64,000 nucleotides of DNA. It comes from a virus (taxonomy: Duplodnaviria > Heunggongvirae > Uroviricota > Caudoviricetes). Made by a program: the position numbers and the translations under genes. Location of the stretch: positions 492 through 64,491 of IMG/VR virus record IMGVR_UViG_3300024287_000004, one strand, 5' to 3'. The notes below the pieces were generated by a model that worked only from the letters and a program-made list of their open reading frames with translations, ran no database searches and was not told the origin of the DNA. This document shows, piece by piece, positions 11,096-53,176 of this stretch; within the stretch, counting starts at the first letter, position 1; every line of letters begins with the position of its first letter.

Positions 11096-11125
11096 GCCCC
11101 CAGCCTTTCGGTTGGGGGCTTTTTT
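11096..11125 (+). terminator. Strong rho-independent terminator at convergence of + and - gene blocks
   Basis: gcccccagcc-tttc-ggttgggggc 10-bp stem then tttttt 11120-11125. Confidence 0.75.
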
Positions 11126-11850: not shown

Positions 11851-12327
11851 TTATTGTTCGTCCTCCTTAAGCCACAACGTAGCGTCGTGAGCGTGGAGAA
11901 CAGCTTCAAAAATAGCAATGAGGCGTTTCTTATCCCCATTACCCAGACCCCCGCCAATCAGCGGGAGGTGAATCGGAATACCCGGCATATACTGGTCAAC
12001 GTACTTAACAACGTTTTGCAGGCCCAGTACCACCGCATCATACGAAACGTACAGCGTGTACGGGTTACGCCCGTATTCCTTTTGCGTGATGACGTTGGCA
12101 ATGCAACGATCCTCGTAGGGGTTCTCCCAGATGATCGCCTGTCCCAGCTTCAAACCGTACCGGCGTTCAGCTTGTTTGTAAACTAGGTAGGCTTCCGGGT
12201 GAAGGTCTTTGATGATCTTTGCTACGCCCGACCCCATCACACCCTTAGCATTGCAGCCGTGTACTACTAAACAACGCTTACCAGCCGTAGCGTTAAACAA
12301 GTCGCCAATTTGAATGTCAAGCGCCAT
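11851..12327 (-). CDS. Macro domain protein (ADP-ribose binding/processing)
   Basis: IQIGDLF..LVVHGCNAKGVMGSGVAKII and LPLIGGGLGNG resemble macro motifs (VNAAN..GGGVxGAI; G-x-G loop); track start TTG 12336, ATG 12327 preferred. Confidence 0.75.
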   Translation of the reverse strand: MALDIQIGDLFNATAGKRCLVVHGCNAKGVMGSGVAKIIKDLHPEAYLVYKQAERRYGLKLGQAIIWENPYEDRCIANVITQKEYGRNPYTLYVSYDAVVLGLQNVVKYVDQYMPGIPIHLPLIGGGLGNGDKKRLIAIFEAVLHAHDATLWLKEDEQ

Positions 12328-12541
12328 ACGCAACAACCACTTTAACTTTCCGGGTGTTAAAATCCTTAACTACCCCGAACATCTCACGGCTAGTGCCGTC
12401 TTTGACGCCAATATCCTTGTCAAACGTGAAGACACTACAACCCCCGAGCAAGCTGGCGATGACTTTTGCCTCGTCCTCGGTTTCAATCGTCAAGGTGAAC
12501 GGCTGGAATGCCGGTTTAGTTTCGATTGGCGTGCGTTTCAT
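12317..12541 (-). CDS. Hypothetical protein, 74 aa
   Basis: ORF only. Confidence 0.35.
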   Translation of the reverse strand: MKRTPIETKPAFQPFTLTIETEDEAKVIASLLGGCSVFTFDKDIGVKDGTSREMFGVVKDFNTRKVKVVVAYGA

Positions 12542-12914: not shown

Positions 12915-14291
12915 TTACGCAACGAAGAAACGTTGGCCCTTCGAAGCTGTTGGACCCGCATCATATGCCTTCTTACCCTGCACCATAGCATGAGCACGGG
13001 CCATATCGCGGGTGTCGTAGAACTTAGCACCAACCGGGGCAGTGTGGTAGCGAACACGGCCACCATCGCTAGGCATGATCGGCACAGGCTTTAGCACAGG
13101 CCACGATGCCGCTTGTTGGGCGATGTGCGCAGCTTGCGACGGGGCCTTAGCAGCCTTGGACGATGCCGGGTTAGGAGTCGGCTTGTTCGTTACAGGAACA
13201 GCAGGCAATTGCACAACTTGCGGCTTGTCTGCCTTCGGTTGCAAGTAAGCCAAATCCGCCTCAGTGAACGGCTTACCAATCGCCTTCCAGTAAATAACGC
13301 CCGTACCGCTAACCAGCTTGCGATTAACGCTCTCGCTCTGGATGAAGATGTCAAAATTGCCATGATCGCCCGGATGCAGACGAACGTTACGGTCATCCGG
13401 CAGGCCCAGCATCTCACGAGCATCAGCTCCGGCGTAAATCTTGCCGGTGTTGCGGTCACGCACAGCAATCATTTTCGTGGGCTGAACACGCGGTTCCGTT
13501 TTGGTAAGCTGGTAGAAAGCCGAGCCTTTCAGGTATTCCATGCGATGACGCAGGATGAACGGACGAATCTCGATTCCGTTATCTTCTGATGGAACGACAT
13601 ATAGCGAAACGTCTTTGCCTTCCACCAGTTCAACCAGCTTGCCAGTGTCAACAGCCGAAGCCGAGGCGTAGAACACCGTGGAGCTAGTTTTGCCTGCCGA
13701 GCGCATAGCGGAGAAGCTATTCACAGCAGCTTGAGTAGCAGCCGTGGACTTAGCCATACCTTCCGCAGTGGTTTCCCATTCGATGATATTACCGTCTGGG
13801 ATGCCCAGCCCTTGAAGCTCACTGCGGAAGCCAACGGGAACACGGCCCACGAAGGTCCAACGGCCCGTAGCTTGCAAGGCAGTGATTTTCCGACCCAAGG
13901 TGAACTGGTTGTACTCACGCGAGTGGCGTTCTTCCCCGTCCGTGGTAATCATAACCACGTAGGAAACGTTCGGCATACGCGCATCCGGCAGCGATTCGAA
14001 CAACTCAATCATCTCTCCGATGCCATCATACAGCGGAGTTCCACCCGGCGTAGGCCACGAGGTAAGAGGCTTAAGAACGTGCGGGTTCGAGATGACAACT
14101 TGGCGTTCCACTCCGTAGCCGCCGTTGCCAATACCGATGCCGACGACAGAAACGATGGTGTCAAGTTCTTCACGGGTAGCTGCGTCTTTAACAGCCTTAA
14201 TGTTGACGTTGTAGTCAGCCATCGCTGCATTTGCCAGCGAAGCCATAGAGCCCGAGTGGTCATTCACAAAGCCCCAGTGTGTTTTATTCAT
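12915..14291 (-). CDS. von Willebrand factor A (vWA) domain protein, 458 aa
   Basis: MIDAS motif FVNDHSGSM (DxSxS) and VVMITTDGEE (TDG); Pro/Ala-rich linker; RBS aaaaggaga. Confidence 0.65.
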   Translation of the reverse strand: MNKTHWGFVNDHSGSMASLANAAMADYNVNIKAVKDAATREELDTIVSVVGIGIGNGGYGVERQVVISNPHVLKPLTSWPTPGGTPLYDGIGEMIELFESLPDARMPNVSYVVMITTDGEERHSREYNQFTLGRKITALQATGRWTFVGRVPVGFRSELQGLGIPDGNIIEWETTAEGMAKSTAATQAAVNSFSAMRSAGKTSSTVFYASASAVDTGKLVELVEGKDVSLYVVPSEDNGIEIRPFILRHRMEYLKGSAFYQLTKTEPRVQPTKMIAVRDRNTGKIYAGADAREMLGLPDDRNVRLHPGDHGNFDIFIQSESVNRKLVSGTGVIYWKAIGKPFTEADLAYLQPKADKPQVVQLPAVPVTNKPTPNPASSKAAKAPSQAAHIAQQAASWPVLKPVPIMPSDGGRVRYHTAPVGAKFYDTRDMARAHAMVQGKKAYDAGPTASKGQRFFVA

Positions 14292-14379: not shown

Positions 14380-16023
14380 TTAGCCGTGCAGGCGTTCTTT
14401 GATTTCAGCGAAGGTTTGGAAACGAACAAGACGGCCATTCTCAAACACAACCTTAAGCTCGCCCATCACTTCCTGATAACGCTCTTGCTGGTCGTACAGG
14501 ACGAACTTACCACCTTCGTTCTCCACACGCAGCAGGCCCTTAGCAGACTTCTTAACCCCGTCGCCGGTTTTGGGGTCTTTCTCAAGCTCTCGCGCTTCCC
14601 CGTTCACCACGCCCCACGTAGCCTTAACGGCCATACCGAACGTGTCACGGGTAATGTATTGGTAGGTGTAGCTACCAATGCCGAACACCACGTTAGCAGA
14701 GCTAAAGCCCTTCTCCATCAGGCGTTGCAGGATAGCTTCGCAGCGTTCCAACGTAATGCTATCCCCGTAAATCAGGCTAACGTGCTTGTCGAGGGTCTTG
14801 TAACCCTTGTCGGTTACAGTACCGCCGAATTCATCCCACAGGCATTCCACAGCACCTTTAACTTCGTGCTCAGCAAGCTCCTTGCCCAGAACGATAGTGT
14901 CAACACCGCAGTCGTAACAGCAAGAAGCCTTCGTGTGGAATTCGTAATACTTGCCTTGATACTTCACCGCGTCAGCGTCACCTACAGTGTCGTAAGCGTC
15001 AAAAAGCCCTGTAAGCTGTTCCACTTCCACAACCTTGTAGCCGGTCAGAATCTTAACAGGATCGCCCGAGTCAGGACGGAACACCACCTTAGCGTTACCA
15101 AATGCGTCTTCACCACGGGCCATGATTTCCGGTTTAAGCTCTTCCGCAAAGCGGGTGATAACCTGCCAGAAGTCCCATGTATCCGAGACGATGGAGACAA
15201 CCCCTTTAGGGTACACTTTGGTAATCAGGCGACGGAATGTGCCGATTTCATCGGGGCTCCCGCCCATGCACATGACGGAGTGCTCTGTAGCCGGGACTGA
15301 GCCTGCTACAAGTTCCTCCGTTACGTCAGCGCCGTAGTAGTACTCCAGATAGTCGATAGCGAGCAGGGCATCCGTACCAGAGCCAGCGGCCATCAAGTGT
15401 GCAGCACCGCACTTGGCCGAGTCGAAGCGGCCCGACATACCGCGCATGGAAAAATCGTGTGCTTGCCAGTTGACGAACATCGGGTCAGCCCCGGTCAATG
15501 CTGCGTACTTACCGATGAGACGGCGGTACTCGAACGCGATGGTGCCAACCGTAATCGGCTTCCACAGATCACAGGATAACACCGTTTCAAGGTAGTTAGT
15601 CAGCCAATAGAACTGCGGCAGCGTGTTCTTGATCGTCAGGAACGGAACACGGATGTCAACACGGCTACCCTCTGGCAGTGCCTTAATTACGATAGGCAGA
15701 TAGCCAAGATCGTGCAGGGCTTCGATGTGATCGGTGCGAACTGCGTTCTCCCCGAGGAAGTTATCACAGCGCCGTTTGTACTCCGCCACCACTTCTACCC
15801 TCGGACGTTGGAAGAAACCCTCGTTCCATTCTTCAATCAGGAATTCCAGAATGAAGCCTTGCAGGCCCGTAAACACCACCTTGTTATCAAAGGTGGAAGG
15901 CATCTTGGCATGGGCTGCACTACGGGCCGTGAAGTTTGAATACACGTACTCCGTACCTTCCGGGTACTGGTCGATATGCCCTAATTTATAACTATCCAAA
16001 GCCAAATGAGGTCGTTTTTTCAT
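14380..16023 (-). CDS. Nicotinamide phosphoribosyltransferase (NAMPT/NadV) family protein; candidate Namat of an NAD+ reconstitution pathway
   Basis: Collinear match to NAMPT: LDSYKLGH, LPIVIKALPEG..FYWLTNYLETVL, HDFSMRGMSG, SVPATEHSVM, VSIVSDTWDFW, VFRPDSGDP, IYGDSITL, KKSAKGLLRV. Confidence 0.9.
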   Translation of the reverse strand: MKKRPHLALDSYKLGHIDQYPEGTEYVYSNFTARSAAHAKMPSTFDNKVVFTGLQGFILEFLIEEWNEGFFQRPRVEVVAEYKRRCDNFLGENAVRTDHIEALHDLGYLPIVIKALPEGSRVDIRVPFLTIKNTLPQFYWLTNYLETVLSCDLWKPITVGTIAFEYRRLIGKYAALTGADPMFVNWQAHDFSMRGMSGRFDSAKCGAAHLMAAGSGTDALLAIDYLEYYYGADVTEELVAGSVPATEHSVMCMGGSPDEIGTFRRLITKVYPKGVVSIVSDTWDFWQVITRFAEELKPEIMARGEDAFGNAKVVFRPDSGDPVKILTGYKVVEVEQLTGLFDAYDTVGDADAVKYQGKYYEFHTKASCCYDCGVDTIVLGKELAEHEVKGAVECLWDEFGGTVTDKGYKTLDKHVSLIYGDSITLERCEAILQRLMEKGFSSANVVFGIGSYTYQYITRDTFGMAVKATWGVVNGEARELEKDPKTGDGVKKSAKGLLRVENEGGKFVLYDQQERYQEVMGELKVVFENGRLVRFQTFAEIKERLHG

Positions 16024-16034
16024 CGTTGTTCTCC

Positions 16035-16328
16035 TTATCGGCTAGCCGCTGCTTCCGCTGCTGCTTCGTGTGCAATGTCGGCTACGTAGTCCTTTAGCAG
16101 CGTACCCAGCTTGCTTTCAAAAGTTGGCTCTGGCTGCTCGGAAGCCTTCTGTTCACTTAGAAGGTTCAGCTTCCGTGCAACGTCGATGTGCACAACTTTC
16201 TCAATCGTCTTTTTCGTGGGGTAAGAGTCGGAGAGATGGGTTTGGGAAGAGATGCTTACTTTTACAAACTCTTCTTTACTACCTTGCTTTCCGCTTACAT
16301 CACACACATAAGTGGTGATAATTGCCAT
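16035..16328 (-). CDS. Hypothetical protein, 97 aa
   Basis: ORF between NAMPT-like and PRS-like genes. Confidence 0.4.
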   Translation of the reverse strand: MAIITTYVCDVSGKQGSKEEFVKVSISSQTHLSDSYPTKKTIEKVVHIDVARKLNLLSEQKASEQPEPTFESKLGTLLKDYVADIAHEAAAEAAASR

Positions 16329-16350
16329 TTTTTGTTGTTCTCCTTATTAG

Positions 16351-17175
16351 TTAAATAACCAAACTAACCTTGCCAGATGCTACGGCTGCTTCGCCCTTAG
16401 CACCTACAGGGTTGCTAGTGTACAGCTTATCTACCAAGCCGTCAAACACTTCCACACCAGCCGAGAAAATGCCGTGCGTAACGTACAGCATTACTTGGCC
16501 GTCCGTCAGCTTACGCAGTTCCTTAGCAAGCTCGGTGAAGGTACGTCCGCCGTCGCAGATATCGTCCACGATGAGGAAGTCTTTATTACCTACGTGCTCG
16601 CTGTACACGGCAGTCCCGGTAACCTTCCCGGTCAGCACATCACGGGTTTTATCGGCCCGTACAACGTGCGCAAAGCCATGATCCTTGGCGATTCCCAGTA
16701 CTTTCTTGTTTGCTCCAGCATCCGGGCTTACAAGCACGGTAGTGTCGTGGTCCAACCATTCCAGCAGAGACGCAATCTTTTCCGTTGCAGGACGGTGCAC
16801 AAGGTTGTTAATAAGTGCTTCCGCAACATTGGAATGGAGGTCGTAACACACTACCTCGGTGAAACCTAGGCTGTTGATGAAATCAGCCACCACCTTAAGC
16901 GACAGGCTTTCACCGGGCGAGCACACCCGGTCTTGACGAGCGTAGGGCATGTACGGCATGACTAGAATAATTTCTACTTCGCTGCCATATTCCCTGCGCA
17001 GAGCGTCCACCAGCAATGCAAGGTCGATGAGGTCGCTGTTACTTTCGTAATTCAGCTTGATTGACAGCCCCCAAGCGGGCGGCATGTAGCCGAGACGCAG
17101 AAACGTTTCCCCGGCAGGGAATTGGCGAAGCTCGAAAGGGACAATGGCTCCGCCCACGAATAGTTTTAGGCTCAT
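16351..17175 (-). CDS. Ribose-phosphate pyrophosphokinase (PRPP synthetase) homolog, short form (274 aa); candidate ADP-ribose pyrophosphokinase (Adps)
   Basis: LKLFVGGA, DLALLVDALRR, MPYMPYARQDR, DLHS, LIVDDICDGGRT (PRPP-binding loop); RBS caaggag. Confidence 0.85.
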   Translation of the reverse strand: MSLKLFVGGAIVPFELRQFPAGETFLRLGYMPPAWGLSIKLNYESNSDLIDLALLVDALRREYGSEVEIILVMPYMPYARQDRVCSPGESLSLKVVADFINSLGFTEVVCYDLHSNVAEALINNLVHRPATEKIASLLEWLDHDTTVLVSPDAGANKKVLGIAKDHGFAHVVRADKTRDVLTGKVTGTAVYSEHVGNKDFLIVDDICDGGRTFTELAKELRKLTDGQVMLYVTHGIFSAGVEVFDGLVDKLYTSNPVGAKGEAAVASGKVSLVI

Positions 17176-17771: not shown

Positions 17772-17801
17772 ACTTTCTAGCTACCTGTCAAGCTTTTTGG
17801 C
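17772..17801 (-). promoter_or_regulatory. Sigma70-like promoter on minus strand (TTGACA-18-TACACT) with CTAGCT upstream element
   Basis: revcomp tgtcaa 17796-17801; agtgta 17772-17777. Confidence 0.5.
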
Positions 17802-18280
17802 GTAATAATTTCAACACCCTTGGCTGTAAGGCTGTCGAACAAATCAGCCGGGATACTACGGATAGGGTGCAGGTAGGAGGGCTTCCCAAGCTCTGCCATG
17901 TAGGTAGCCATATCCAAGCTGCCTGTACTCTTATTAGGCCCCTCGGTAATTCCACTCCAAACAATAAGCGCCTCGTCAGCAAAGTCGCCCATCTCGTGAT
18001 TACGCCAGATGCCAGCTAGCAGGTTGAATTTCTTACCATCTCGTCGCGTTCTTACAACAGCCCCCGGCGCTTCAATGTCATCCCACTTGGCCGGGAAAGA
18101 GTGAATCTGTAGCCCATTCTTCTTGGCAAACTCTTCGCCCAGCGTATCAACCCCGTCAGCCTTCCCGCTCACTACTTCAATGCTTTTCTTGTGCTTTGCC
18201 CACAAGCCCGATTCGATGATGGCACGCTTTACCGTGTCGTAGCTTGTGATGCTGCGCGAGCCAGCGATTATGAGTTTCAT
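17777..18280 (-). CDS. YspA-type SLOG domain protein (DUF2493 family), 167 aa
   Basis: KLIIAGSRS, VVSGKADGVDTLGEEFAKKNGL..FPAKWD, AGIWRNHEM, ALIVWSG pattern matches DUF2493/SLOG Rossmann-like family; track TTG start 18301, ATG 18280 preferred. Confidence 0.65.
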   Translation of the reverse strand: MKLIIAGSRSITSYDTVKRAIIESGLWAKHKKSIEVVSGKADGVDTLGEEFAKKNGLQIHSFPAKWDDIEAPGAVVRTRRDGKKFNLLAGIWRNHEMGDFADEALIVWSGITEGPNKSTGSLDMATYMAELGKPSYLHPIRSIPADLFDSLTAKGVEIITPKSLTGS

Positions 18281-18486
18281 TTCTGCCCTTTCCGCACACA
18301 AACCATCTTAGGGTCGTAATGCCCCATGATGTTAAGCTCCCGGCCTGCCTTGCTCAATGCAGCCCCGGCTGCAACGCAAGCCTCTGGCGTGTTGAACTCA
18401 CCCATGTTTGCATACTCAACGCGTGGCCCATAGCCAGCGACAAAAGCTACTAACAAAATGTAAATCATTTCTGCTCCTTTGCCCAT
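18277..18486 (-). CDS. Small membrane protein, 69 aa
   Basis: MIYILLVAFVAGYG TM segment; ATGA overlap. Confidence 0.4.
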   Translation of the reverse strand: MGKGAEMIYILLVAFVAGYGPRVEYANMGEFNTPEACVAAGAALSKAGRELNIMGHYDPKMVCVRKGQK

Positions 18487-20533: not shown

Positions 20534-22399
20534 TTACATTTCTACAGTGCACTGGCCCCCGGCACAAGCGGCTTCCATCGTGTGAGCCGTCATATCCTCT
20601 TCCTCGTTCACTTCCGTAAGGTCGAAAGAACCTTGTGCCTCGATATAGGCCATCAGACCTTCGTAAACCTCTTGTGAGCAGCTTTCGAACGGGGCTTGTA
20701 CGTAGGTGCCACCATCGTAAGGAAGAACGCTAATACCGTTGTATTCGTCCCTGTAGTCCCACATCCATTGGCCGCAAGCTTCCCACTCGTCGGCTTTCAG
20801 GCTGATGGTGCAACTAACGTTGTGTTTCTGCACACCGCGATTGTGGCCCGGTGCAATCCATTCCTGATTGAAGCGGCGTACACGCTCTAGCAAGTCCATA
20901 AAGCTTTCGCTACGCAGGATACTCCCTTCGGGCGCTTTCTGCGGGAAGGTCATCACGGCTTCCAGATGCGGCTTAAACTTGCAATCCTCTACCAGCAGCG
21001 GGAACTTAGCCATCATGTAATGGTACAGTGCTTCGTTCTTGCCAACACGCATACGGCGAATGTAAAACTTGTCATGCCAAGCATGAATGCCCGATGCAGA
21101 GCCAACCACAATAGAAGCTGTCCCTTCCGGCTTGTTAAGGGTAGTACGTGCAGCAGGGTTAATGCCAATGATATCGGCTACTCGAATATTCTCTTCCTTA
21201 ACAACCAAAGCTGCCTCGGTCAAGTCTAGCGGTAAGATAGCCCCAGAGCCAATGCCGGTAATCGAAACGCCGATCAAGGCGTCATCTTCCGTAACCTGCT
21301 TCCAAATCTCACGTAGGTAGTGGAAGTTGGTATAGCCCGCTTGCAGCGTACCAATGAATGTAGCAGCCTTCGACCGGGCATTTAGTTCATCCTGCGTGTG
21401 AATGTCATCCCCGTTAATCGTTGTCAGGTTGCAGAACGAGTACATTCGCAGCGTAGCTTCCACACAAGGGTTGCTTAGGATGTCCCGGTCATTCGTCCAA
21501 TACACGCCCGGTTCACCAGCGTTTGATTCCTCTACACGCTTCCAAATGTCCTTGAACGTCTTCTCGTCAATCGTACCTCGTAGCAGAACAACAGAGTTGT
21601 TAGCACGGCCACGTTGGGGGTTTAGCTCCCACCATGCACCGCTCTTGCAGGTAATCATTTCAACATCATCAGGGCTAAAGAAGGCAATCATAGCCGCACG
21701 GCGAATACCGCCCGACAGCACAGCGTCAGCAATGTGACACTGGATATCATGGCACTCTAGCGGGGTAAGCTTACGGCCTACAGCCCCGTTCAGGATGCAG
21801 GTAATGTTTACCAAGCAAACGCGCAACGGCTCAGGGCCGGGGGCTTTACCACCAGCGGTAATAAGGGGCGCTCCCTTTTCCCGGATATCCCGGAAATCGA
21901 AATCCGGCATTGCTTTATTGTCAAAATAGGCACGCATCAACACTTTAACGGCATCGGCCCAGCCCTCGATACTGTCACCGATCAGGAAGCGGCGTTTGTG
22001 TGCCTTAGGGCCTACAACAACCGGCAATTGTTCAACGTGGTGGCGTTGGACGCTGTAGCCAACCCCCGAACCACCCAGCAGCAGGAACATCGTCTCAGCG
22101 AAGGATACGTAGCTGTCAATCGGCAGGCAGCAGCAATTGAACATGCGGGTGTTGTTAATCTCGATAGGACGACCGCCAAACTGCATTGAACGCATGGACG
22201 GCAAAACTTTCTTGGTCTTTACGTAAGTGTCAAATACGTACTTAATTTCTTCTGCCAGTTGGGGATACTTAGCAATGTGCATCGCCATGTTGCGATCACA
22301 AATTTCTTCCCAAGTCTCTCGTCGGCCAAGGGCCGGGATGTATTTACTGTACTTATTGAAGGTCACTACTTCGCTCAAAATTCGCTGGGAGATATCCAT
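20534..22399 (-). CDS. Ribonucleotide reductase, class II (adenosylcobalamin-dependent), 621 aa
   Basis: NCCCLP...GGSGVGYS active-site region; C-terminal Cys pair ACAGGQC; paired with NrdH-like gene. Confidence 0.75.
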   Translation of the reverse strand: MDISQRILSEVVTFNKYSKYIPALGRRETWEEICDRNMAMHIAKYPQLAEEIKYVFDTYVKTKKVLPSMRSMQFGGRPIEINNTRMFNCCCLPIDSYVSFAETMFLLLGGSGVGYSVQRHHVEQLPVVVGPKAHKRRFLIGDSIEGWADAVKVLMRAYFDNKAMPDFDFRDIREKGAPLITAGGKAPGPEPLRVCLVNITCILNGAVGRKLTPLECHDIQCHIADAVLSGGIRRAAMIAFFSPDDVEMITCKSGAWWELNPQRGRANNSVVLLRGTIDEKTFKDIWKRVEESNAGEPGVYWTNDRDILSNPCVEATLRMYSFCNLTTINGDDIHTQDELNARSKAATFIGTLQAGYTNFHYLREIWKQVTEDDALIGVSITGIGSGAILPLDLTEAALVVKEENIRVADIIGINPAARTTLNKPEGTASIVVGSASGIHAWHDKFYIRRMRVGKNEALYHYMMAKFPLLVEDCKFKPHLEAVMTFPQKAPEGSILRSESFMDLLERVRRFNQEWIAPGHNRGVQKHNVSCTISLKADEWEACGQWMWDYRDEYNGISVLPYDGGTYVQAPFESCSQEVYEGLMAYIEAQGSFDLTEVNEEEDMTAHTMEAACAGGQCTVEM

Positions 22400-22502: not shown

Positions 22503-23036
22503 TTATTTGCTATCTGGCGTCCAGCCAATATGGTAGTCGTAGATTGTCTTACGGGTGCCGTCAGGGTTAAACGGATCACCGCGTACAGCTAGCAGTAGGT
22601 CTTTAAGAATTTCAATTTGCATAGCCACCATCGTTTCGTTGTCCATCGTCAACTCAGGCGGGAAACCTTTCTCACTAAGTCCCTCGTCATCCTCGCCGTA
22701 GTTCCGTCCCGTTGTTAGCTGTTTAGCCATATCGTTAGCTAGGCTCAGGTCTTGGTAGCCTTGGGCAATCATACGATCCTCGGCAGTGGCGAACGGCCCC
22801 GATAGGAAGGAATCGTTAATTTCCACTTCGCCTACAATGCGGTAGGCAATAACAACATCTCCTTGCATGTTACGATGCTGAGATGGAACGTACTCAATCG
22901 GATAGTCCAAATCTAACCCCAGCATTTTGAGATAGGGAGCAATCAGCTTGTCGTTCTTGGGATCGATGAACTCAATCATCCGAAGGTGGCTAAGTTCATC
23001 AATCAGTTGCAGGTCTGTTACCGAGATGCTTTTCAT
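22503..23036 (-). CDS. Hypothetical protein, 177 aa
   Basis: ORF. Confidence 0.45.
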   Translation of the reverse strand: MKSISVTDLQLIDELSHLRMIEFIDPKNDKLIAPYLKMLGLDLDYPIEYVPSQHRNMQGDVVIAYRIVGEVEINDSFLSGPFATAEDRMIAQGYQDLSLANDMAKQLTTGRNYGEDDEGLSEKGFPPELTMDNETMVAMQIEILKDLLLAVRGDPFNPDGTRKTIYDYHIGWTPDSK

Positions 23037-23491
23037 TACTTTGCCCCTACCAAATCAGACAAATCCACCTTGGCGTAGGTAGAAGGCTTGCGAACTTTGC
23101 CGTTAGCATCTTTCAGCACAACCCGGTTGTACTTGGGGTTGGTGTAAAGCGTGAACTTCTCAGGGTTACCAAACACTTCTCCAACCTTCGGGAACTTGCT
23201 CAGGTTGTTCTCGTTAACACGCAGTAGGGCTTGTGCCACGTTGTAGCCTTGGGCTTCCATCTTCTGTAGCAGACCACCCAACACTACGAACATATCGCAA
23301 GCTTCCTTAAGGAACTCGGCTTTGTCGCCAGCCTCAAAGGCTTCGATTGCTTCGCTTAGTTCCTCAAAGCAGAACCCAAGCTGAGCGTCAATGCTTTCAT
23401 CCGTTACGTTGGTCAGATTGCCTGCGATATCGTTGAACTCACGCACGCCAGCGTAGGCGGTACGGATTACTTTAGTTGCTTCCATCTTCAC
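23036..23491 (-). CDS. MazG-like nucleoside triphosphate pyrophosphohydrolase
   Basis: LGFCFEELSEAIEA..D..EFLKEACDMFVVLGGL typical MazG EExxE/ D motifs. Confidence 0.7.
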   Translation of the reverse strand: MKMEATKVIRTAYAGVREFNDIAGNLTNVTDESIDAQLGFCFEELSEAIEAFEAGDKAEFLKEACDMFVVLGGLLQKMEAQGYNVAQALLRVNENNLSKFPKVGEVFGNPEKFTLYTNPKYNRVVLKDANGKVRKPSTYAKVDLSDLVGAK

Positions 23492-26631: not shown

Positions 26632-27172
26632 GTTCGTTCTCCTTAAAAATTTGAGTTACAAGCGCCCTTCGCTTGCTTTCATTGCTAACAGAAGTGCCAG
26701 TATACCCGTAAGAAGCTAGGAAAGCAAGAACTTTTTTCTTGTCCTTAAGCGCAGCCGTAACTTTCTTCTCTAGCTTCGCCTCTTCCAAGCTAATGCCCTT
26801 GCTCTGGGAGAGAGTGTAGCACTTGTGACAGGGCTTACACAATACCCGCAGGTTGTCAACTTCACAGTATAACCTGTTAACAAACGGGCCTATATCTTCG
26901 AAGCTTAGTATGCTACCAGCATCATGCGGGTAGTGGTCAACCTCGATATCATTAAGCATGAAGTAGTCGTTACAGAGGGCGCATTGCACTTCCCACTTTT
27001 GGCGCTTGTTCTGTCCCACATACGGCCTTCTAGCACGTTCAATGGCTTGGCTACGGGGTTTCCACTTGAGCCATTTGCTACGTAGGGCAGAACGAATCCA
27101 AGCTAGATACTGTGCCTCGGTCATCGTGCCAGAGCAGCGGGTTAGCTGGCCTTTGGTTTTCTTGGTAGCCAT
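26603..27172 (-). CDS. HNH endonuclease
   Basis: CALC...EVDHY...CKPCHK. Confidence 0.65.
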   Translation of the reverse strand: MATKKTKGQLTRCSGTMTEAQYLAWIRSALRSKWLKWKPRSQAIERARRPYVGQNKRQKWEVQCALCNDYFMLNDIEVDHYPHDAGSILSFEDIGPFVNRLYCEVDNLRVLCKPCHKCYTLSQSKGISLEEAKLEKKVTAALKDKKKVLAFLASYGYTGTSVSNESKRRALVTQIFKENEHEQETTSRR

Positions 27173-27732
27173 TAGACACCGTGCCTTTCTGAGTAGCCAG
27201 CAGCAGTATTCACCACGCTATCCCTGTACTCCGACGCCAGCCTAAACGCCTCTGCATCGCCATAGGTTGCTATCTTAAAAGATTTAGACCGTTGCCGCCC
27301 CGCCGCGTCGTTCCATGTGGCAACCCAGTGAGTGTGTGACTTTCTGGCTACTCCTACCTTTCCAGAGATATTGTTTCTACCTTTACGCCTGTTTTTGGCG
27401 TTCTCCTTAGAGGTCACAGCCCGCAGGTTGCTAACTTGGTTGTTGCTTCTGTCTCCGTCGATGTGGTCTATATACCTTCCTTCCAGTGGCCCATGTACCA
27501 ATTCGTACACGATGCGATGGCACTTATACGACTGTCCCTCGCAGTACACCGCCCAGTACCCCTTTGTAAGCATATGGCCTGCGGGGGAGCCTTTCGGCTT
27601 TCTCATATAAAGCTCCCCGCCAAACTTAGGCAGCAACCAATCCTTAGCTCGGCGTAGGCCACTCGGACTGGTGGGGTCGTAGTAGAAATGCTCAGACCAG
27701 TTAACGGATTTTGTATCTTTTAAGCGGCCCAT
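27172..27732 (-). CDS. HNH homing endonuclease (HNH_3 + AP2 domain)
   Basis: HRIVYELVHGPLEGRYIDHIDGDRSNNQVSNLRAVT; AP2-like GVARKSHTHWVATW. Confidence 0.75.
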   Translation of the reverse strand: MGRLKDTKSVNWSEHFYYDPTSPSGLRRAKDWLLPKFGGELYMRKPKGSPAGHMLTKGYWAVYCEGQSYKCHRIVYELVHGPLEGRYIDHIDGDRSNNQVSNLRAVTSKENAKNRRKGRNNISGKVGVARKSHTHWVATWNDAAGRQRSKSFKIATYGDAEAFRLASEYRDSVVNTAAGYSERHGV

Positions 27733-33494: not shown

Positions 33495-33779
33495 TTACTT
33501 TCTTCGCCTTTTCCTGTAAATCTTCTGCCTTTCAGCCCGCTTAGCCCATTGCTCAGGCTTAAACCTGTAGGTGGCGTTTAAGCTGTTAGCTAATAAGTGC
33601 GGTACATGCCACGAACCATCACGCGGGGTGGACCAGCCAGCTATTGCCCCGCTCGCTTTATGCCTCGCCCTCATGTAAGTACTACCACACACCACTTCAA
33701 AACCTAGTGCATGGTAGTACATAAACGTTCCCAGCCATGCTAGCGGTCTTTTATCCGCTTCGTCGTATGCTTTGCCCAT
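33495..33779 (-). CDS. Hypothetical basic protein, 94 aa
   Basis: ORF. Confidence 0.4.
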   Translation of the reverse strand: MGKAYDEADKRPLAWLGTFMYYHALGFEVVCGSTYMRARHKASGAIAGWSTPRDGSWHVPHLLANSLNATYRFKPEQWAKRAERQKIYRKRRRK

Positions 33780-34357
33780 TACCTGACTCCATGTGTGGCT
33801 GTGTAACCAGCACCTTGTTGATTAAGTTCTCCCAACATCTTACTCCTATACTCGCACGCTGACTGGTAGGCTACGTATTCCCCCAGTTGCTTGATATTAA
33901 ACCGCTTGTGGCCTCTACTGCCATCCGTCCTGCACCATACAGCTACCCAGTACTCCGTACCCCTCCCGTTAGTGCCCCTTGACACGCCAGTAACGCCAGA
34001 AATGTTATCCCTCCGTTTTGCAGCGTTCCTAGTGTTTATTGCATTAGGCACCGCTCGCAGGTTACCTACGCTATTGTTCAGATAATTACCGTCCAAGTGG
34101 TCTACTACAAATCCCTCCGGGATAGGGCCGTTGTGCATCTCCCAAATAATACGGTGTACTTTGTAACGCTTACCTGCCAAGAGCACGGTTGACCTCTCCC
34201 CGTTCTTCTTACCGGCAACATCGCCCTTTCTAATGTGGGTCAAGATGTTTTTTGAGTTGTAAACGTCAATCGCCCAACGGAGGAATGTTGGGCTTGTTTC
34301 GTCGTATACAAAGTAATCGGTCCACTTAATATGCGAAGTATCTAGCGGCTTCGGCAT
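33779..34357 (-). CDS. HNH homing endonuclease (HNH_3 + AP2 domain)
   Basis: HRIIWEMHNGPIPEGFVVDHLDGNYLNNSVGNLRAV; AP2-like GVSRGTNGRGTEYWVAVW. Confidence 0.75.
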   Translation of the reverse strand: MPKPLDTSHIKWTDYFVYDETSPTFLRWAIDVYNSKNILTHIRKGDVAGKKNGERSTVLLAGKRYKVHRIIWEMHNGPIPEGFVVDHLDGNYLNNSVGNLRAVPNAINTRNAAKRRDNISGVTGVSRGTNGRGTEYWVAVWCRTDGSRGHKRFNIKQLGEYVAYQSACEYRSKMLGELNQQGAGYTATHGVR

Positions 34358-34417: not shown

Positions 34418-36862
34418 TTAGTGAGTCTCAGCCCAGTTCCTACCTAACATATAGTCTGCTAGCAAAGTAACGTTGAGCTTGTAATACTCGCCTGACTCCC
34501 TAACGGCTTCACTCGTCAGTTCTCCAGCTAGGCAGTAGCCCATGTAGTAGCCCTTGGCCGTATGCCCAACCTCAGACCACCTAGGATTCTCAGCTTTAAA
34601 CGCCTTAGCCGCTTCCTCCGTTTGAAACGTCTTCCACTGAATAAGAGATTTATGTACCTCTAGGTTAGCCTCGTCGTGGTAGGCTACTAGTTGCTGAACA
34701 AAGACTTTGTTCTTCCAATCATCTTTCCAGAAATCTACTGTCATTCCTGCCTGTCGTAGCTTTCTTTCATGGATAACCATAGCCCGTTTTGCGCAGATAA
34801 CCCCCGCTGACTGGAACAAGCTGTTGATTAGGGCAGAAGCCGATCGGGTTGGAATTTTTCTCCCGTCAATGCCGAGAATGAACTTCTTACCCCCGGTTGT
34901 CTCCCAGTACTTCTTAAGGCGTTCTGCCAACATTTTAAGAGGCTTAGCAGCTTCCCAGTACGCCTCGTGAATCAATTTACCTGTGGCTAAATCACAACCA
35001 ACGGTCTTAGCAACCCTTGCAGGTTGAGCACCGTAAGCGCAAGCGTATTTAACTGGCTTAGCGGCTGTTCGACTGAAAGCCTGTCCGATAACATCTGCAA
35101 TCTTTTTAGCTGTAACCGTATGAATGTCATTTGGCTTAGCAGCGGTCAGCGATTTGCAATAGGACTTTTCTTCATCGTCATACCTCCAAGCGTAGTGTGA
35201 CTCGATCATCGCTTCTAGGCTAGCAAAGTCATAACCTAGTTGGTAAAACCCCGCCTCAACGTCAACGCCGAATAGCTCCCTCATCTCCGTGCCAAAGAGG
35301 GAAGTAACGCGTGGGATGTTAGCAACCAAGCGATGCTTAAAACGGCTTGTAGCAGCCCCGCAGGTATCAGCGGGAGTAGGAATTCGATGGTCAATGTTGA
35401 TACGATCAACCGAGAGCCAGCCCTTCTCCATTTCCTCTTCATCGTCGTCCGGGTCCACGTTACCCCCGAGAATACTGTTACGGCGATGGCTGTACGTCAG
35501 GTATTCACTGACCTCCTTAGCGTAAGCAAACTTCGCTTTCATAGCCTCTGACAACAGGGCCGGGTCAATCTCTTTCTCCTGCCCGATGGTCAACGTGGGA
35601 TTCGTATAAACCTTAAGAGGCCGCTTCATGTGGTCGTGCTCTTTAAGCTTAGCCCTCACCATCTCTCGGTCGTGGTAGATCGTGATACCCAAGCCCCTCA
35701 CTTCCGAAAGCTCCTGCATCCGGTCGTCCTTGAAAGGACCGTCAAACGTTTGGTCAACCCACTTGTCTACGGCAGCGTCAAACTTCTCCTTAAGCAGCTT
35801 CTTTTTCTTGCTGTCTACTGTTAAGTCACGCTCCTTATACTGGGTCGGATTCCAGCCCATCTCCACGAGCCAGCCCTTGATGTGGGTTGTGTCCTTAATC
35901 GTCGCAGGCATGTGTGTGAAGATTGGACCCTCTGGCAGTGGTAGTGTGTGCATTGTCCCGTACAACTCGGCCTTGTAAACTCCGTCAACCTCTTCCAGCT
36001 TGCCGCCGTGCTTCTCAATAAAATTGATGGCGTGGGCTGTAGGAGTGCCGTCCTTCTTAAACTGCTTAGCCGGGGGCGTGTAGTCCTTCATTGCCGTCTT
36101 GGTAAGAGGCTTAGGAGGAATCAACGGCTCGACAATTTGCCGTAGGGCTTCCATTTTTTCGTCTAGCACCTTGACATGCTCTACAGCCTTGTCCCGGTTG
36201 AACCAGAACCCGCGATGTTCCTGCCTCGTGATAAGCTCTTTGACAAGCTTCTCAAGGTTGTAAGCATCGTCCCAGTCCCAGTCGCCCCATTCCCGGATAA
36301 GGAAGTCGTGAACACGGTCAGTAACATCCAAGTCACGTTCCATGTACACAGCCATTTCGGGGTGAAACACCAAGAACTCCGCCCCTTTAGGAGCGTCGTG
36401 AGTACACAACCCAAGTTCTACAGCTTTGGCGCGCCAGTTGATTTTTTCCAGCCCAAGAATGCCGCCGAAGTAGTCTATACTGTGCTGTGGACGGTCAGGG
36501 TTAAGCGTCTTCGACATCACCAGCGTGTCGGTAATGATGATAGGCTTACCGCCTACCAAATCAGGCGCACCACCGTAACCAATCTCGTAATCCAGCCCGA
36601 TAGCAGCTTTCATTGCAAGATGGTCAAAGTTGATTGAGTTGTGGGCGATTAGCTCTGTCGCTGTGTCAAGGATGAACTCTTTTACTCTTCCGTTGTAAAT
36701 GTCATCTGCTAGAAATACCGTCTTCTCTTTGGTTTCCTTGTTTTTAAAACCAACGCAGTGAATAAATCTGCTATCCTTCAACGTGTATGGAGAAGCATTG
36801 TAGTCTACCCGTTGCGAGTCGAGAAGCCCGCGCGATTCAATATCCCAAACGTACCTAGTCAC
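34418..36862 (-). CDS. DNA polymerase, family A (T7 gp5-like) with 3'-5' exonuclease domain
   Basis: Motif A GYDFASLEAMIESHY, motif B KPVKYACAYGAQPARVAKTVG, motif C VAYHDEANLEV; GTG start with RBS aaaggaga. Confidence 0.85.
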   Translation of the reverse strand: MTRYVWDIESRGLLDSQRVDYNASPYTLKDSRFIHCVGFKNKETKEKTVFLADDIYNGRVKEFILDTATELIAHNSINFDHLAMKAAIGLDYEIGYGGAPDLVGGKPIIITDTLVMSKTLNPDRPQHSIDYFGGILGLEKINWRAKAVELGLCTHDAPKGAEFLVFHPEMAVYMERDLDVTDRVHDFLIREWGDWDWDDAYNLEKLVKELITRQEHRGFWFNRDKAVEHVKVLDEKMEALRQIVEPLIPPKPLTKTAMKDYTPPAKQFKKDGTPTAHAINFIEKHGGKLEEVDGVYKAELYGTMHTLPLPEGPIFTHMPATIKDTTHIKGWLVEMGWNPTQYKERDLTVDSKKKKLLKEKFDAAVDKWVDQTFDGPFKDDRMQELSEVRGLGITIYHDREMVRAKLKEHDHMKRPLKVYTNPTLTIGQEKEIDPALLSEAMKAKFAYAKEVSEYLTYSHRRNSILGGNVDPDDDEEEMEKGWLSVDRINIDHRIPTPADTCGAATSRFKHRLVANIPRVTSLFGTEMRELFGVDVEAGFYQLGYDFASLEAMIESHYAWRYDDEEKSYCKSLTAAKPNDIHTVTAKKIADVIGQAFSRTAAKPVKYACAYGAQPARVAKTVGCDLATGKLIHEAYWEAAKPLKMLAERLKKYWETTGGKKFILGIDGRKIPTRSASALINSLFQSAGVICAKRAMVIHERKLRQAGMTVDFWKDDWKNKVFVQQLVAYHDEANLEVHKSLIQWKTFQTEEAAKAFKAENPRWSEVGHTAKGYYMGYCLAGELTSEAVRESGEYYKLNVTLLADYMLGRNWAETH

Positions 36863-37568
36863 TTGTTTTCTCCTTTAGATAGCTAATGACAGCCTCATTC
36901 GCAGCTTCTTCCGTGTCAAACCTGCCAAGAGCTACCTGTTTGTGTTTTCCAGCCACTACCTCAGTAAGTGTAGCTCTCCACTTTGAACGTGCCTTGTCCC
37001 ACGATACCCCGTAAAAATTTGACGTTTTACGGCTGTACTGTCTTCTCCCTTTTGGTGTGGCCCCTTTGTTAGCTTTCACATAATCTACAACAGCTTGGTC
37101 GCCTAGCGTAGCCTTAATCTCTTCTGCCCGCTTCCGCAACTCTATTGCATCATCAACACACTTGAATACTCCGAGGCAGAGTGTAGTTTCGTTTACGTAG
37201 ATTTGGGCCTTCCATTTCCCTTTGTAATGGACTACACCGAGTCTGCCTGACTCGGTATCTTTTTCCGTGCGCCGGTTGTTTTGTTGAACTTTCTTAGTAG
37301 CCCAACGGCAATTGCTTGGCTCGTAGTTTCCGTCAACATCCTTACGGTCTAATGTAAGCCCATCTGGTCTCTCTCCGACTGCACCGAGAAAATTTAACAG
37401 GCCCCTTGGATTATCCCAACGCCATTCCTCGCAAACAGAGATGCCCCGCCCACCGTATCTGTTGTAACTTTGATGGTTCTTTGAGTAGCAGCGGTAATTC
37501 ATCATCCTCCATGTTGCGTATAGCGGGTGTGTTGTTGGTTTTTCTATTCCTATCTGCTTTACTAGCAT
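36855..37568 (-). CDS. HNH homing endonuclease (HNH_3 + two AP2-like domains)
   Basis: TLDRKDVDGNYEPSNCRWATKKVQ; track TTG start 37619, ATG 37568 with RBS aggaga preferred. Confidence 0.65.
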   Translation of the reverse strand: MLVKQIGIEKPTTHPLYATWRMMNYRCYSKNHQSYNRYGGRGISVCEEWRWDNPRGLLNFLGAVGERPDGLTLDRKDVDGNYEPSNCRWATKKVQQNNRRTEKDTESGRLGVVHYKGKWKAQIYVNETTLCLGVFKCVDDAIELRKRAEEIKATLGDQAVVDYVKANKGATPKGRRQYSRKTSNFYGVSWDKARSKWRATLTEVVAGKHKQVALGRFDTEEAANEAVISYLKEKTSD

Positions 37569-37590
37569 ATTATCTCCTAAAATAATTTGG

Positions 37591-37619
37591 AGTATAGCAC
37601 ACTCGTTACCACTTGTCAA
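37591..37619 (-). promoter_or_regulatory. Sigma70-like promoter on minus strand (TTGACA-17-TATACT)
   Basis: revcomp tgtcaa 37614-37619; agtata 37591-37596. Confidence 0.55.
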
Positions 37620-39850: not shown

Positions 39851-40110
39851 GTTTGTTTCTCCTTGTCTATAAGTTTGCTATGCAGGTAGGTAGAGCAAAT
39901 ACTACCCAACCCACCACCCAAGCCGACCGCTAACACTATCCAGCCCCAGCCGCTATGAACAACGTTCAACAGGATTGCTGCTTCGCATGCAGCCATGCAC
40001 ATGCTTGTTGGCAGAATCCAGCCGTACTTGCGGTGGACAACGTTGAGTTGTTGCCAACTCCGCAAGCCGATATTCAGGAAGCTAGTAATGAACGCTAGCA
40101 GGTAAATCAT
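39838..40110 (-). CDS. Small membrane protein, 90 aa
   Basis: Three hydrophobic segments. Confidence 0.4.
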   Translation of the reverse strand: MIYLLAFITSFLNIGLRSWQQLNVVHRKYGWILPTSMCMAACEAAILLNVVHSGWGWIVLAVGLGGGLGSICSTYLHSKLIDKEKQTCKE

Positions 40111-51590: not shown

Positions 51591-51650
51591 TTGTCTTACT
51601 GCGCGGAGAGCAGCGCAGGCATACCAAACCTAACTACCTGAAAGTGATAT

Positions 51651-52033: not shown

Positions 52034-52070
52034 AGCAAACACTAACAACCAAACCTTAGAGGGCTACAAT

Positions 52071-53141: not shown

Positions 53142-53176
53142 GGGGCCTTCCTTAACCACCAAGCGAGCTAAGCATC

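What the first reader, a model, noticed from the sequence alone, without database searches (positions are those of the whole stretch)
14380..17175. NAMPT homolog + truncated PRPP-synthetase homolog without an NMNAT: NARP1-type (ADPR-PP route) rather than classical NadV salvage?
The NAMPT-family protein matches NAMPT along its whole length, with a ~50 aa insertion (EFHTKASCCYDCGVDTIVLGKELAEHEVKG...). The Prs homolog is only 274 aa, lacks the usual C-terminal region, and keeps the PRPP-binding loop (LIVDDICDGGRT). No NMN adenylyltransferase or Nudix gene occurs anywhere in these 64 kb. In NARP2/NadV systems an NMNAT is required. In NARP1 a Prs-like kinase (Adps) makes ADPR-PP and a NAMPT-like Namat condenses it with nicotinamide. 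Gene content therefore favours NARP1, but sequence alone cannot distinguish the two.
Basis: partly seen in the sequence, partly recalled or inferred. Interest (0 to 1): 0.65.

Follow-up and report, generated by a model that had tools for sequence, protein, structure and literature searches.

The report
Phage NAD+ rebuilding pathway (NARP1)
An uncultivated ~90-kb phage carries the already-described two-enzyme NARP1 pathway, which rebuilds NAD+ from ADP-ribose and nicotinamide to defeat NAD+-depleting bacterial immunity; it is an ordinary new member, probably with a helper phosphatase gene nearby.

Summary
Both ORFs exist exactly as described: a NAMPT-like gene (14380-16023, minus strand, 547 aa) and a short Prs-like gene (16351-17175, minus strand, 274 aa).

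Sequence can now separate NARP1 from NadV salvage.
- The NAMPT-like protein carries the published Namat signature (GSYTYQYITRD).
- It scores 517 bits against the crystallised SPbetaL1 Namat, versus about 205 bits for human NAMPT.
- It separates from four NARP2-type Nampts in 50/50 bootstraps.
- The Prs-like protein falls in the Adps clade, with 99/100 bootstrap support against nine cellular Prs. It shares that clade's N- and C-terminal deletions and keeps the catalytic Lys.

No NMNAT or Nudix gene was found in 79 of the contig's 90 kb.

The ~50-aa "insertion" lies in a region that varies widely across Namat proteins. The 97-aa ORF between the two genes is unrelated cargo.

A Macro-domain gene (11851-12336) lies 2 kb downstream on the same strand. 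It is homologous to the ADPR-1''-phosphate phosphatase of "NARP1-AP" operons, and the seven closest relatives conserve it there. This suggests, but does not prove, an extended pathway.

Verdict: a new member of a known system. No enzymology was done. Interest is low to moderate.

The parts
16351..17175 (-). Adps: Prs-family ADP-ribose pyrophosphokinase, 274 aa
   Evidence: PHROG 619 E 1e-81. Every NCBIfam Prs equivalog model scores far below its cutoff. Neighbour-joining tree: 99/100 bootstrap for the Adps clade, which includes SPbetaL1, FADO, a Felixounavirus and the Vibrio NARP1-AP type, against 9 cellular Prs. It shares the clade's N- and C-terminal deletions.
16639..16659 (-). Adps RADKTRD segment holding the catalytic Lys (K176)
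   Evidence: It aligns with the Lys of the SPbetaL1 GHKQRN segment and the E. coli Prs DKRR Lys. I take the SPbetaL1 Lys to be K162, whose alanine substitution impairs NARP1 (bioRxiv 10.1101/2024.02.11.579819). Residue numbers were not counted.
16540..16575 (-). Adps ribose-phosphate loop LIVDDICDGGRT
   Evidence: It aligns without gaps to the E. coli Prs loop DDMIDTGGT. The DGGR/DGGA variant is shared with the Menlow, Felixounavirus and Acinetobacter Prs2 Adps-type proteins.
16035..16328 (-). 97-aa cargo ORF in the Adps-Namat slot; probably not part of the pathway
   Evidence: It has an AAGGAG ribosome-binding site and 40 homolog clusters. Three homolog contexts examined lie near ThyX, ligase and primase genes, not in NARP1 operons. 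It is absent from all 79 related loci.
14380..16023 (-). Namat: NAMPT-family nicotinamide ADP-ribose transferase, 547 aa
   Evidence: 517 bits against the SPbetaL1 Namat crystal structures 9w5x/9w5w, versus ~205 bits for human NAMPT. About 53% aligned identity to SPbetaL1 Namat versus 31% to a KVP40-like NadV. All catalytic residues are conserved. 50/50 bootstrap against NARP2 Nampts.
14644..14676 (-). Namat selectivity-clamp helix motif (SCH): GSYTYQYITRD, aa 450-460
   Evidence: It matches the published GS-X-phi-X-phi-X-phi-TRD consensus, with aromatic residues at the adenine-stacking positions (PMC12774641). 81 of 82 Namat-type sequences carry an 11-residue GS[FY][TS][FY]...[TS]RD motif at this site; one viral-contig sequence has it interrupted by an insertion. 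Four NARP2 Nampts have GG[GA]LLQ..xRD instead.
15883..15921 (-). Namat selectivity-clamp loop (SCL): SAAHAKMPSTFDN, aa 35-47
   Evidence: The loop is longer than in Nampts. Its third residue is Ala, not the typical R/K/Y. The His at the fourth position is conserved in the window and its 7 closest relatives.
15274..15291 (-). Namat ATEHSV segment with the catalytic, phosphorylatable His (H248)
   Evidence: It aligns with SPbetaL1 residues 242-247, including H245.
14860..15042 (-). Variable insert of Namat (aa 328-388), including the SCCYDCG stretch
   Evidence: The region is 20-101 aa long in 82 Namat-type proteins and 8 aa in NARP2 Nampts. The Cys cluster is absent from close relatives L035, L015 and L017.
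11851..12336 (-). Macro-domain protein, candidate Adpp (ADPR-1''-phosphate phosphatase); the likely start is ATG at 12327
   Evidence: PHROG 335 'phosphatase' E 8e-34 and Pfam Macro E 5e-4. AlphaFold2 pLDDT 95.6. Foldseek matches DarG, TARG1 and Poa1p with TM 0.75-0.85. hhalign against 19 macro proteins encoded between Adps and Namat: 99.9%, E 1.9e-32. It is syntenic in 7/7 close relatives.
11096..11119 (.). GC-rich hairpin followed by a T-run at the convergence of the + and - gene blocks; likely end of the minus-strand unit
   Evidence: 10-bp stem with 8 GC pairs, then TTTTTT. The scan as a whole was at chance level, so this is only suggestive.

Best explanation

Proposed mechanism:
1. A host NADase effector (SIR2, TIR or SEFIR type) cleaves NAD+ into ADP-ribose and nicotinamide.
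2. The short Prs-like enzyme (Adps) transfers pyrophosphate from ATP to the 1'' position of ADP-ribose, giving ADPR-PP.
3. The NAMPT-like enzyme (Namat) replaces that pyrophosphate with nicotinamide and regenerates NAD+ directly. No NMN adenylyltransferase is needed.

Shown here: family and clade membership of both proteins; catalytic residues and the adenine-clamp signature; co-orientation and close linkage; absence of an NMNAT in 79 of 90 kb.

Inferred: the enzymatic specificities and the anti-defence role, by bracketing with experimentally characterised members.

Secondary inference (about 0.55 confidence): the Macro-domain gene 2 kb downstream acts as Adpp. It would convert ADPR-1''-phosphate, the product of RES-domain defence (aRES), into ADP-ribose, making this a NARP1-AP-like extended pathway.
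For: Namat:
- The SCH motif GSYTYQYITRD matches the published discriminator (PMC12774641).
- The NAM, ribose-phosphate and catalytic residues are identical to SPbetaL1: D13, Y15, F189, R192, D215, H245, R306, D308, D361, S391, R399, D400. F392 is Tyr and Y396 is Tyr.
- 517 bits against SPbetaL1 Namat structures versus ~205 bits for human NAMPT and 168-178 bits for the chains deposited as 'Pre-B cell enhancing factor related protein', which I take to be Xanthomonas Nampt.
- 50/50 bootstrap against NARP2 Nampts.

Adps:
- 99/100 bootstrap inside a clade bracketed by SPbetaL1 (biochemically characterised), FADO (deletion-validated), a Felixounavirus (used as a proxy for Bas63, which I place in that genus from memory) and a Vibrio NARP1-AP-type operon.
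- All Prs equivalog models fall below their cutoffs.
- Clade-specific deletions are shared and the catalytic Lys is kept.

Context:
- The two genes share a strand, are 327 nt apart and have strong ribosome-binding sites.
- 72/79 related viral loci have Adps within 7 kb of Namat; none has an NMNAT; 37 have a macro gene.
- No NMNAT or Nudix in the window or its flanks.

Literature (bioRxiv 10.1101/2024.02.11.579819):
- 97% of Adps-clade genes have a Namat gene nearby.
Against: - No enzymology was done.
- Identity to the validated Adps proteins is only 30-33%, although the protein sits inside their clade.
- The SCL lacks the typical R/K/Y at its third position (Ala; His follows).
- Namat enzymes keep PRPP-to-NMN activity in vitro (PMC12774641), so some NMN production cannot be excluded.
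- 11.2 kb at the left end of the contig and its last 0.4 kb were not examined.
- For the Adpp inference: three genes separate Namat from the macro gene, which is outside the published 'within two genes' criterion. The macro fold class also includes de-ADP-ribosylases (DarG, TARG1, SCO6735).
Confidence: 0.88

Rival explanations
1. Classical nicotinamide salvage. The Prs-like enzyme makes PRPP, the NAMPT-like enzyme makes NMN, and a host NMNAT (NadR or NadD) or an undetected phage NMNAT finishes NAD+ synthesis.
For: - Generic annotation models name the proteins Prs and NAPRTase/NAMPT.
- Namat retains PRPP-dependent NMN synthesis in vitro (PMC12774641).
- The SCL third residue is atypical.
- About 11.6 kb of the contig was not examined.
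Against: - Both proteins lie inside the Adps and Namat clades, not the Prs and Nampt clades.
- The SCH adenine-clamp motif is present; NARP2 Nampts have GGGLLQ instead.
- SPbetaL1 Adps gave no measurable product in the Prs-type assay but pyrophosphorylates ADPR. Bas63 NARP1 works in a pncC/nadR-deleted host (bioRxiv 10.1101/2024.02.11.579819).
- No NMNAT in 79 of 90 kb, nor in any of 79 related loci.
Confidence: 0.06
2. This concerns the macro gene only. It is not an ADPR-1''-phosphate phosphatase feeding NARP1. It is a DarG/TARG1-type de-ADP-ribosylase (for example against DarT-type DNA ADP-ribosylation), or an RNA-repair Appr-1''-p processing enzyme, and is merely located nearby.
For: - The best structural and profile matches are BT1257, SCO6735 and DarG, ahead of Poa1p.
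- In Escherichia phage Av-05 a homolog lies near RNA ligase 2, away from any NARP1 gene within the ~8.4-kb stretch viewed.
- Three genes separate it from Namat.
Against: - Full-length profile homology to macro genes embedded between Adps and Namat: 99.9%, E 1.9e-32.
- 34 of 79 Namat loci carry such a gene within 7 kb; 23 of them have it inside the operon.
- Synteny is conserved in 7/7 close relatives.
- The family's invariant His (H-G-C-N) appears to align with Poa1p His23. DarG has Asn at that position. The Poa1p equivalence is inferred from alignment offsets, not displayed directly.
Confidence: 0.3

Closest known systems
NARP1 of Bacillus phage SPbetaL1, Escherichia phage Bas63 and Bacillus phage FADO (Osterman et al. 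2024, bioRxiv 10.1101/2024.02.11.579819; Namat structures 9w5x/9w5w, PMC12774641)
   Same: - Same two protein clades.
- Same gene order (Adps upstream of Namat, same strand).
- Same catalytic residues and SCH adenine-clamp motif.
- No NMNAT.
   Different: - 53-54% (Namat) and 30-32% (Adps) aligned identity to the Bacillus-phage enzymes.
- A 58-aa variable insert, as in Felixounavirus and Ackermannviridae versions.
- The SCL has Ala-His instead of R/K/Y.
- A 97-aa unrelated ORF sits between the two genes.
- The host is unknown (metagenome contig).
NARP1-AP of Vibrio phage Gary (Adps-Adpp-Namat; bioRxiv 10.64898/2026.01.28.702374). Vibrio phage F88 was used here as the layout reference; its relationship to Gary was not tested.
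   Same: - Adps, Namat and a small Poa1p/DarG-class Macro protein on one strand.
- The macro families are homologous over their full length.
- Both are only weak Pfam Macro hits.
   Different: The macro gene is not between Adps and Namat. It lies 2.05 kb downstream of Namat, after three other genes (a vWA protein of 458 aa, and ORFs of 92 and 74 aa). Its activity is untested.
NARP2 / NadV-NatV salvage of Vibrio phage KVP40 and relatives
   Same: - A NAMPT-family enzyme that uses nicotinamide.
- The same overall purpose, restoring NAD+.
   Different: - NARP2 Nampts have GG[GA]LLQ..xRD in place of the aromatic SCH, a short SCL and an 8-aa loop at the insert site.
- In Synechococcus phage B3 and Ralstonia phage RSP15 the Nampt gene lies within about 1 kb of an NMNAT-Nudix gene.
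- No Prs-like partner was seen in the NARP2 loci viewed.
Bacterial prs2-nadV(-nrtR) operons (Shewanella, Acinetobacter, Chromobacterium; PMC2330246)
   Same: - The nearest cellular relative of the window's Namat (62.6% aligned identity) is an Acinetobacter chromosomal gene.
- That gene carries the SCH motif, and its Prs paralog falls in the Adps clade.
   Different: - These operons are chromosomal.
- They are regulated by the ADPR-responsive repressor NrtR.
- Their physiological role is not established.

Membership tests
NARP1 (Adps + Namat) | Namat has a NAMPT-type catalytic core: NAM-stacking Phe/Tyr, Asp, Arg, and the phosphorylatable His | tested here: met
   All SPbetaL1 core residues are identical in the window protein.
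NARP1 (Adps + Namat) | Namat SCH signature GS-X-phi1-X-phi2-X-phi3-TRD with aromatic X (PMC12774641) | tested here: met
   GSYTYQYITRD at aa 450-460. NARP2 Nampts have GGGLLQQLDRD-type sequences.
NARP1 (Adps + Namat) | Namat SCL loop that contributes an adenine-stacking residue (third residue typically R/K/Y) | tested here: inconclusive
   The loop is present and is longer than in Nampts. It reads S-A-A-H. The His at position 4 is conserved in the subclade, and about 15 of the sequences tallied also lack R/K at position 3. The paper describes this loop as variable, so it is not strictly defining.
NARP1 (Adps + Namat) | Namat falls in the Adps-associated clade, distinct from the Nampt/NARP2 clade | tested here: met
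   50/50 bootstrap. 517 bits versus ~205 bits in the PDB search.
NARP1 (Adps + Namat) | The Prs-like protein falls in the Adps clade, separate from cellular Prs | tested here: met
   99/100 bootstrap against 9 Prs from 4 phyla. Prs equivalog models score below their cutoffs.
NARP1 (Adps + Namat) | Adps catalytic Lys (SPbetaL1 K162) is conserved | tested here: met
   K176 in RADKTRD aligns with the Lys of the SPbetaL1 GHKQRN segment (taken to be K162; not counted) and with the E. coli Prs DKRR Lys.
NARP1 (Adps + Namat) | adps and namat lie in close proximity (within 10 genes) | tested here: met
   Same strand, with one small ORF between them.
NARP1 (Adps + Namat) | Adps pyrophosphorylates ADPR (not R5P), and Namat prefers ADPR-PP over PRPP | not testable with these tools
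   This needs purified proteins and LC-MS.
NARP2 (Nampt + Nmnat) | KVP40-type Nampt clade | tested here: not met
   31% identity to a KVP40-like NadV. The protein falls outside that clade and the motif differs.
NARP2 (Nampt + Nmnat) | An Nmnat gene in the phage genome | tested here: not met
   None found in contig positions 11,180-89,950. About 11.6 kb was not examined.
NARP1-AP (NARP1 + Adpp) | A Macro-domain protein homologous to the operon-embedded Adpp | tested here: met
   AlphaFold2 pLDDT 95.6 with a macro fold. hhalign 99.9%, E 1.9e-32. PHROG 335.
NARP1-AP (NARP1 + Adpp) | Macro gene within two genes of the NARP1 genes (the paper's operational criterion) | tested here: not met
   Three called genes intervene. 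The macro gene is on the same strand, 2.05 kb downstream, and syntenic in 7/7 relatives.
NARP1-AP (NARP1 + Adpp) | ADPR-1''-phosphate phosphatase activity | not testable with these tools
   The fold class also contains de-ADP-ribosylases.
Canonical ribose-phosphate pyrophosphokinase (Prs, class I) | Reaches curated Prs equivalog scores and has the full N- and C-terminal architecture | tested here: not met
   113 bits against a 297-bit cutoff, and similar shortfalls for the other models. Only the broad TIGR01251 subfamily model passes. About 20 N-terminal-domain and 30 C-terminal residues are missing.

The most novel reading that the evidence does not exclude
In this phage clade NARP1 may be the core of a conserved ~6.5-kb ADP-ribose salvage island: SLOG/YpsA-like protein - DUF8296 - Adps - cargo slot - Namat - vWA protein - Macro protein.

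Under this reading, the Macro protein and the still-uncharacterised SLOG protein are feeder enzymes. They would turn non-canonical NAD+ breakdown products or immune signals (ADPR-1''-P, cADPR isomers) into linear ADP-ribose for Adps.

A SLOG feeder arm would be a third kind of NARP1 accessory, besides Adpp and RyDEP.
Probability: 0.15. Interest if true: 0.55.

Novelty: new member of a known kind. Interest (0 to 1): 0.25.

Why it matters
The result shows that published sequence signatures (the Namat SCH motif, and Adps/Namat clade membership) let a raw-sequence scan assign NARP1 versus NARP2 without biochemistry. It adds an uncultivated ~90-kb phage lineage, with DNA polymerase 47-54% identical to Aeromonas and Pseudomonas phages, to the known carriers.

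It also flags three modest variants worth knowing:
- An Ala-His selectivity loop.
- An Adpp-like macro gene displaced from the operon core. The published "within two genes" search would miss it.
- A conserved SLOG neighbour.

None of this changes the understanding of the pathway.

Tried and rejected
1. **Megablast against phage records.** Searching the locus gave no match, so there is no close cultured relative.

2. **Pfam scan of concatenated ORF polyproteins.** Sensitivity was poor: it missed the Macro, MazG-like and other domains. I replaced it with per-gene precomputed Pfam tables and direct HMM searches.

3. **Apparent conflict over the closest database hit.** That hit is an 'Acinetobacter phage' record with prs, a NAMPT-like gene and a gene annotated 'bifunctional NMNAT/ADPR pyrophosphatase'. 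The conflict is resolved:
   - The contig is bacterial.
   - The third gene is NrtR (NUDIX plus NrtR winged-helix domain, no cytidylyltransferase domain).
   - This matches the ADPR-induced prs-nadV-nrtR operons of PMC2330246.

4. **Idea that the 97-aa ORF in the Adps-Namat slot is a new accessory, like Adpp or RyDEP.** Weakened, for three reasons:
   - It has no homolog in the 79 related loci.
   - Its homologs elsewhere lie in replication or early modules.
   - In the relatives the slot holds HNH endonucleases and assorted small ORFs.

5. **Idea that the Cys cluster in the insert (SCCYDCG) is a metal site.** It is not conserved in the nearest relatives.

6. **Promoter and terminator scan.** Counts were at chance level, so no operon boundaries can be claimed beyond the hairpin at 11096-11119.

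7. **The 458-aa neighbour as an NAD-related enzyme.** It is a vWA-domain protein with an intact MIDAS motif and no detectable NAD link.
Full report
**Observation**

The window carries, on the minus strand, a 547-aa NAMPT-family ORF (14380-16023), a 97-aa ORF (16035-16328) and a 274-aa Prs-family ORF (16351-17175). Each has an AAGGAG ribosome-binding site. Pfam, NCBIfam and PHROGs confirm the families.

The Prs-like protein passes only the broad TIGR01251 subfamily model. It scores far below every Prs equivalog cutoff, for example 113 bits against 297. It scores 275 bits against PHROG 619.

There is no near-identical DNA in the phage collection. The window maps to positions ~17,376-81,375 of a 90,368-bp ENA metagenome contig. 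The DNA polymerase is 47-54% identical to those of Aeromonas and Pseudomonas phages of 88-124 kb.

**What is known**

- Osterman et al. (bioRxiv 10.1101/2024.02.11.579819) described NARP1. A Prs-like Adps makes ADPR-PP from ADP-ribose and ATP, and a NAMPT-like Namat joins ADPR-PP to nicotinamide to give NAD+.
  - NARP1 was found in 4.3% of phages.
  - 97% of Adps-clade genes have a Namat gene nearby.
  - NARP2 (KVP40-type Nampt plus Nmnat) forms a separate clade. No phage was found with both pathways.
- Lan et al. (PMC12774641) solved SPbetaL1 Namat. They defined a selectivity clamp made of two parts:
  - a conserved helix motif, GS-X-phi-X-phi-X-phi-TRD, with aromatic X (the SCH);
  - a variable loop (the SCL).

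**The NAMPT-like protein is a Namat**

- It reads GSYTYQYITRD at residues 450-460. SPbetaL1 and FADO have GSFTYQYNTRD and a Felixounavirus has GSYTYQYMTRD. Four NARP2 Nampts have GG[GA]LLQ..xRD.
- Every SPbetaL1 residue that contacts nicotinamide, the NMN ribose-phosphate or the AMP phosphate is conserved, including the catalytic His. The one exception is A362, which is Ser in the window protein. The adenine-stacking residues F392 and Y396 are Tyr and Tyr.
- Against PDB sequences it scores 517 bits to the SPbetaL1 Namat entries 9w5x/9w5w. It scores ~205 bits to human NAMPT.
- In a neighbour-joining tree of 86 sequences, the 82 Namat-type proteins separate from the four NARP2 Nampts in 50/50 bootstraps.
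- One deviation: the SCL reads S-A-A-H rather than having R/K/Y at its third position. The His is conserved in the window's subclade, and similar non-basic variants occur in about 15 of the sequences tallied.
- The ~50-aa "insertion" lies in a region that spans 20-101 aa across Namat-type proteins and 8 aa in Nampts. Its Cys cluster is not conserved among the nearest relatives.

**The Prs-like protein is an Adps**

- It shares with all Adps references a ~20-residue deletion in the N-terminal domain and a short C-terminus.
- It keeps the YARQDR, DLHS and Lys-containing motifs.
- A neighbour-joining tree gives 99/100 bootstrap support for a clade holding the window protein, SPbetaL1, FADO, a Felixounavirus, Menlow and a Vibrio NARP1-AP-type Adps. 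The clade excludes nine cellular Prs from four phyla.

**Context**

- Of 79 related viral loci, 72 have an Adps homolog within 7 kb of Namat, always on the same strand. None has an NMNAT. 37 have a macro gene.
- Only 25 of 71 pairs are directly adjacent, so cargo between the two genes is common.
- No NMNAT or Nudix gene was found by direct HMM searches of the window plus flanks. The true NMNAT references detected one another, which served as a positive control.
- Per-gene Pfam tables for 79 of the contig's 90 kb also list none.

**A complication resolved**

The closest database hit (62.6% aligned identity) is on a bacterial Acinetobacter contig, next to a gene annotated as NMNAT/ADPR pyrophosphatase.

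That gene is NrtR: NUDIX plus the NrtR winged-helix domain. This matches the ADPR-derepressed prs-nadV-nrtR operons of Rodionov et al. 2008 (PMC2330246). The Acinetobacter pair itself carries Namat and Adps features.

**Beyond the finding**

- *Macro gene.* The ORF at 11851-12336 is a Macro-domain protein.
  - Family and fold: PHROG 335 "phosphatase" E 8e-34; AlphaFold2 pLDDT 95.6; Foldseek matches to DarG, TARG1 and Poa1p.
  - Homology: its family is homologous over its full length to macro genes encoded between Adps and Namat (hhalign 99.9%, E 1.9e-32). That is the layout of the published NARP1-AP pathway, whose Adpp dephosphorylates ADPR-1''-P (bioRxiv 10.64898/2026.01.28.702374).
  - Position: here it lies three genes downstream of Namat, and this position is conserved in the seven closest relatives.
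  - Caveat: the fold class also includes de-ADP-ribosylases, so the Adpp role is plausible but unproven.
- *97-aa ORF.* It belongs to a real small-protein family, but its homologs lie outside NARP1 operons.
- *458-aa neighbour.* It is a vWA protein with no evident NAD link.

**Verdict**

This is a new, uncultivated member of the known NARP1 system, possibly a displaced-gene variant of NARP1-AP. Its premise that sequence cannot discriminate NARP1 from NARP2 is outdated. No enzymatic activity was tested.

Noticed in passing
window 17777-18301 (-): A SLOG / YspA-cpYpsA-related (YAcAr) protein (Pfam E 1e-8; PHROG 289) lies upstream of Adps. Six of the seven closest relatives conserve it there. Viral YpsA-like SLOG domains are predicted, but not shown, to process cADPR-type molecules (PMC9503650).
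   Followed up: partly
window 12915-14291 (-): A highly conserved 458-aa protein lies between Namat and the macro gene (906 homologs, no Pfam family). AlphaFold2 (pLDDT 85.9) shows an N-terminal vWA domain with an invariant MIDAS DxSxS motif, followed by beta-rich C-terminal domains of unknown function.
   Followed up: partly
window 16035-16328 (-); slots between Adps and Namat in L013-L017 and L035: In this phage clade the Adps-Namat intergenic slot holds variable cargo: HNH endonucleases, lipoprotein-like ORFs and small ORFs of 70-87 aa. The window's 97-aa ORF belongs to a family of about 40 clusters found elsewhere near ThyX, ligase and primase genes.
   Followed up: yes
L002 (CAKLQF020000015.1, 'Acinetobacter phage MD-2021a'): This record in the phage collection is a bacterial contig (fepC, AraC, TauE). 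Its 'bifunctional NMNAT/ADP-ribose pyrophosphatase' is really NrtR. Its prsA_2 and 'nicotinate PRTase' genes fall in the Adps and Namat clades. This suggests that the ADPR-induced prs-nadV operons, whose second prs paralog was left unexplained in 2008, are bacterial NARP1.
   Followed up: partly
L005 (Vibrio phage phi-Grn1, 3974-5467): The KVP40-like NadV gene is annotated as 'bifunctional NMN adenylyltransferase/nudix hydrolase', which looks like a mis-annotation.
   Followed up: no
window 27172-27732, 33779-34357, 36855-37619, 43818-44366, 48092-48655 (all -): Five HNH_3 and/or AP2-domain homing-endonuclease-like genes are scattered through the replication module. This is an unusually high density.
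   Followed up: no
window 40107-41351 (-), 23036-23491 (-), 43168-43824 (-), 20534-22399 (-): A nucleotide-metabolism set: a protein with a dGTP_diPhyd_N (PF18909) domain, a MazG/PRA-PH-like protein, ThyX, and a class II RNR-like protein next to a glutaredoxin. The set might indicate DNA base modification or dNTP pool editing.
   Followed up: no
window ~51,650-60,350 (+ strand): A block of about 25 small plus-strand ORFs without Pfam hits coincides with a strong positive AT skew (0.15-0.23). It is probably an early or host-takeover region. My greedy ORF caller gave spurious long ORFs there.
   Followed up: no
L061 (IMGVR_UViG_3300045988_033020), ORF starting at 7160; PHROG 12872: One ORF matched both the Adps and Namat queries. 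PHROG 12872 also aligns to the Adps N-terminal part and the Namat C-terminal part. This is either an Adps-Namat fusion or a chimeric family.
   Followed up: no
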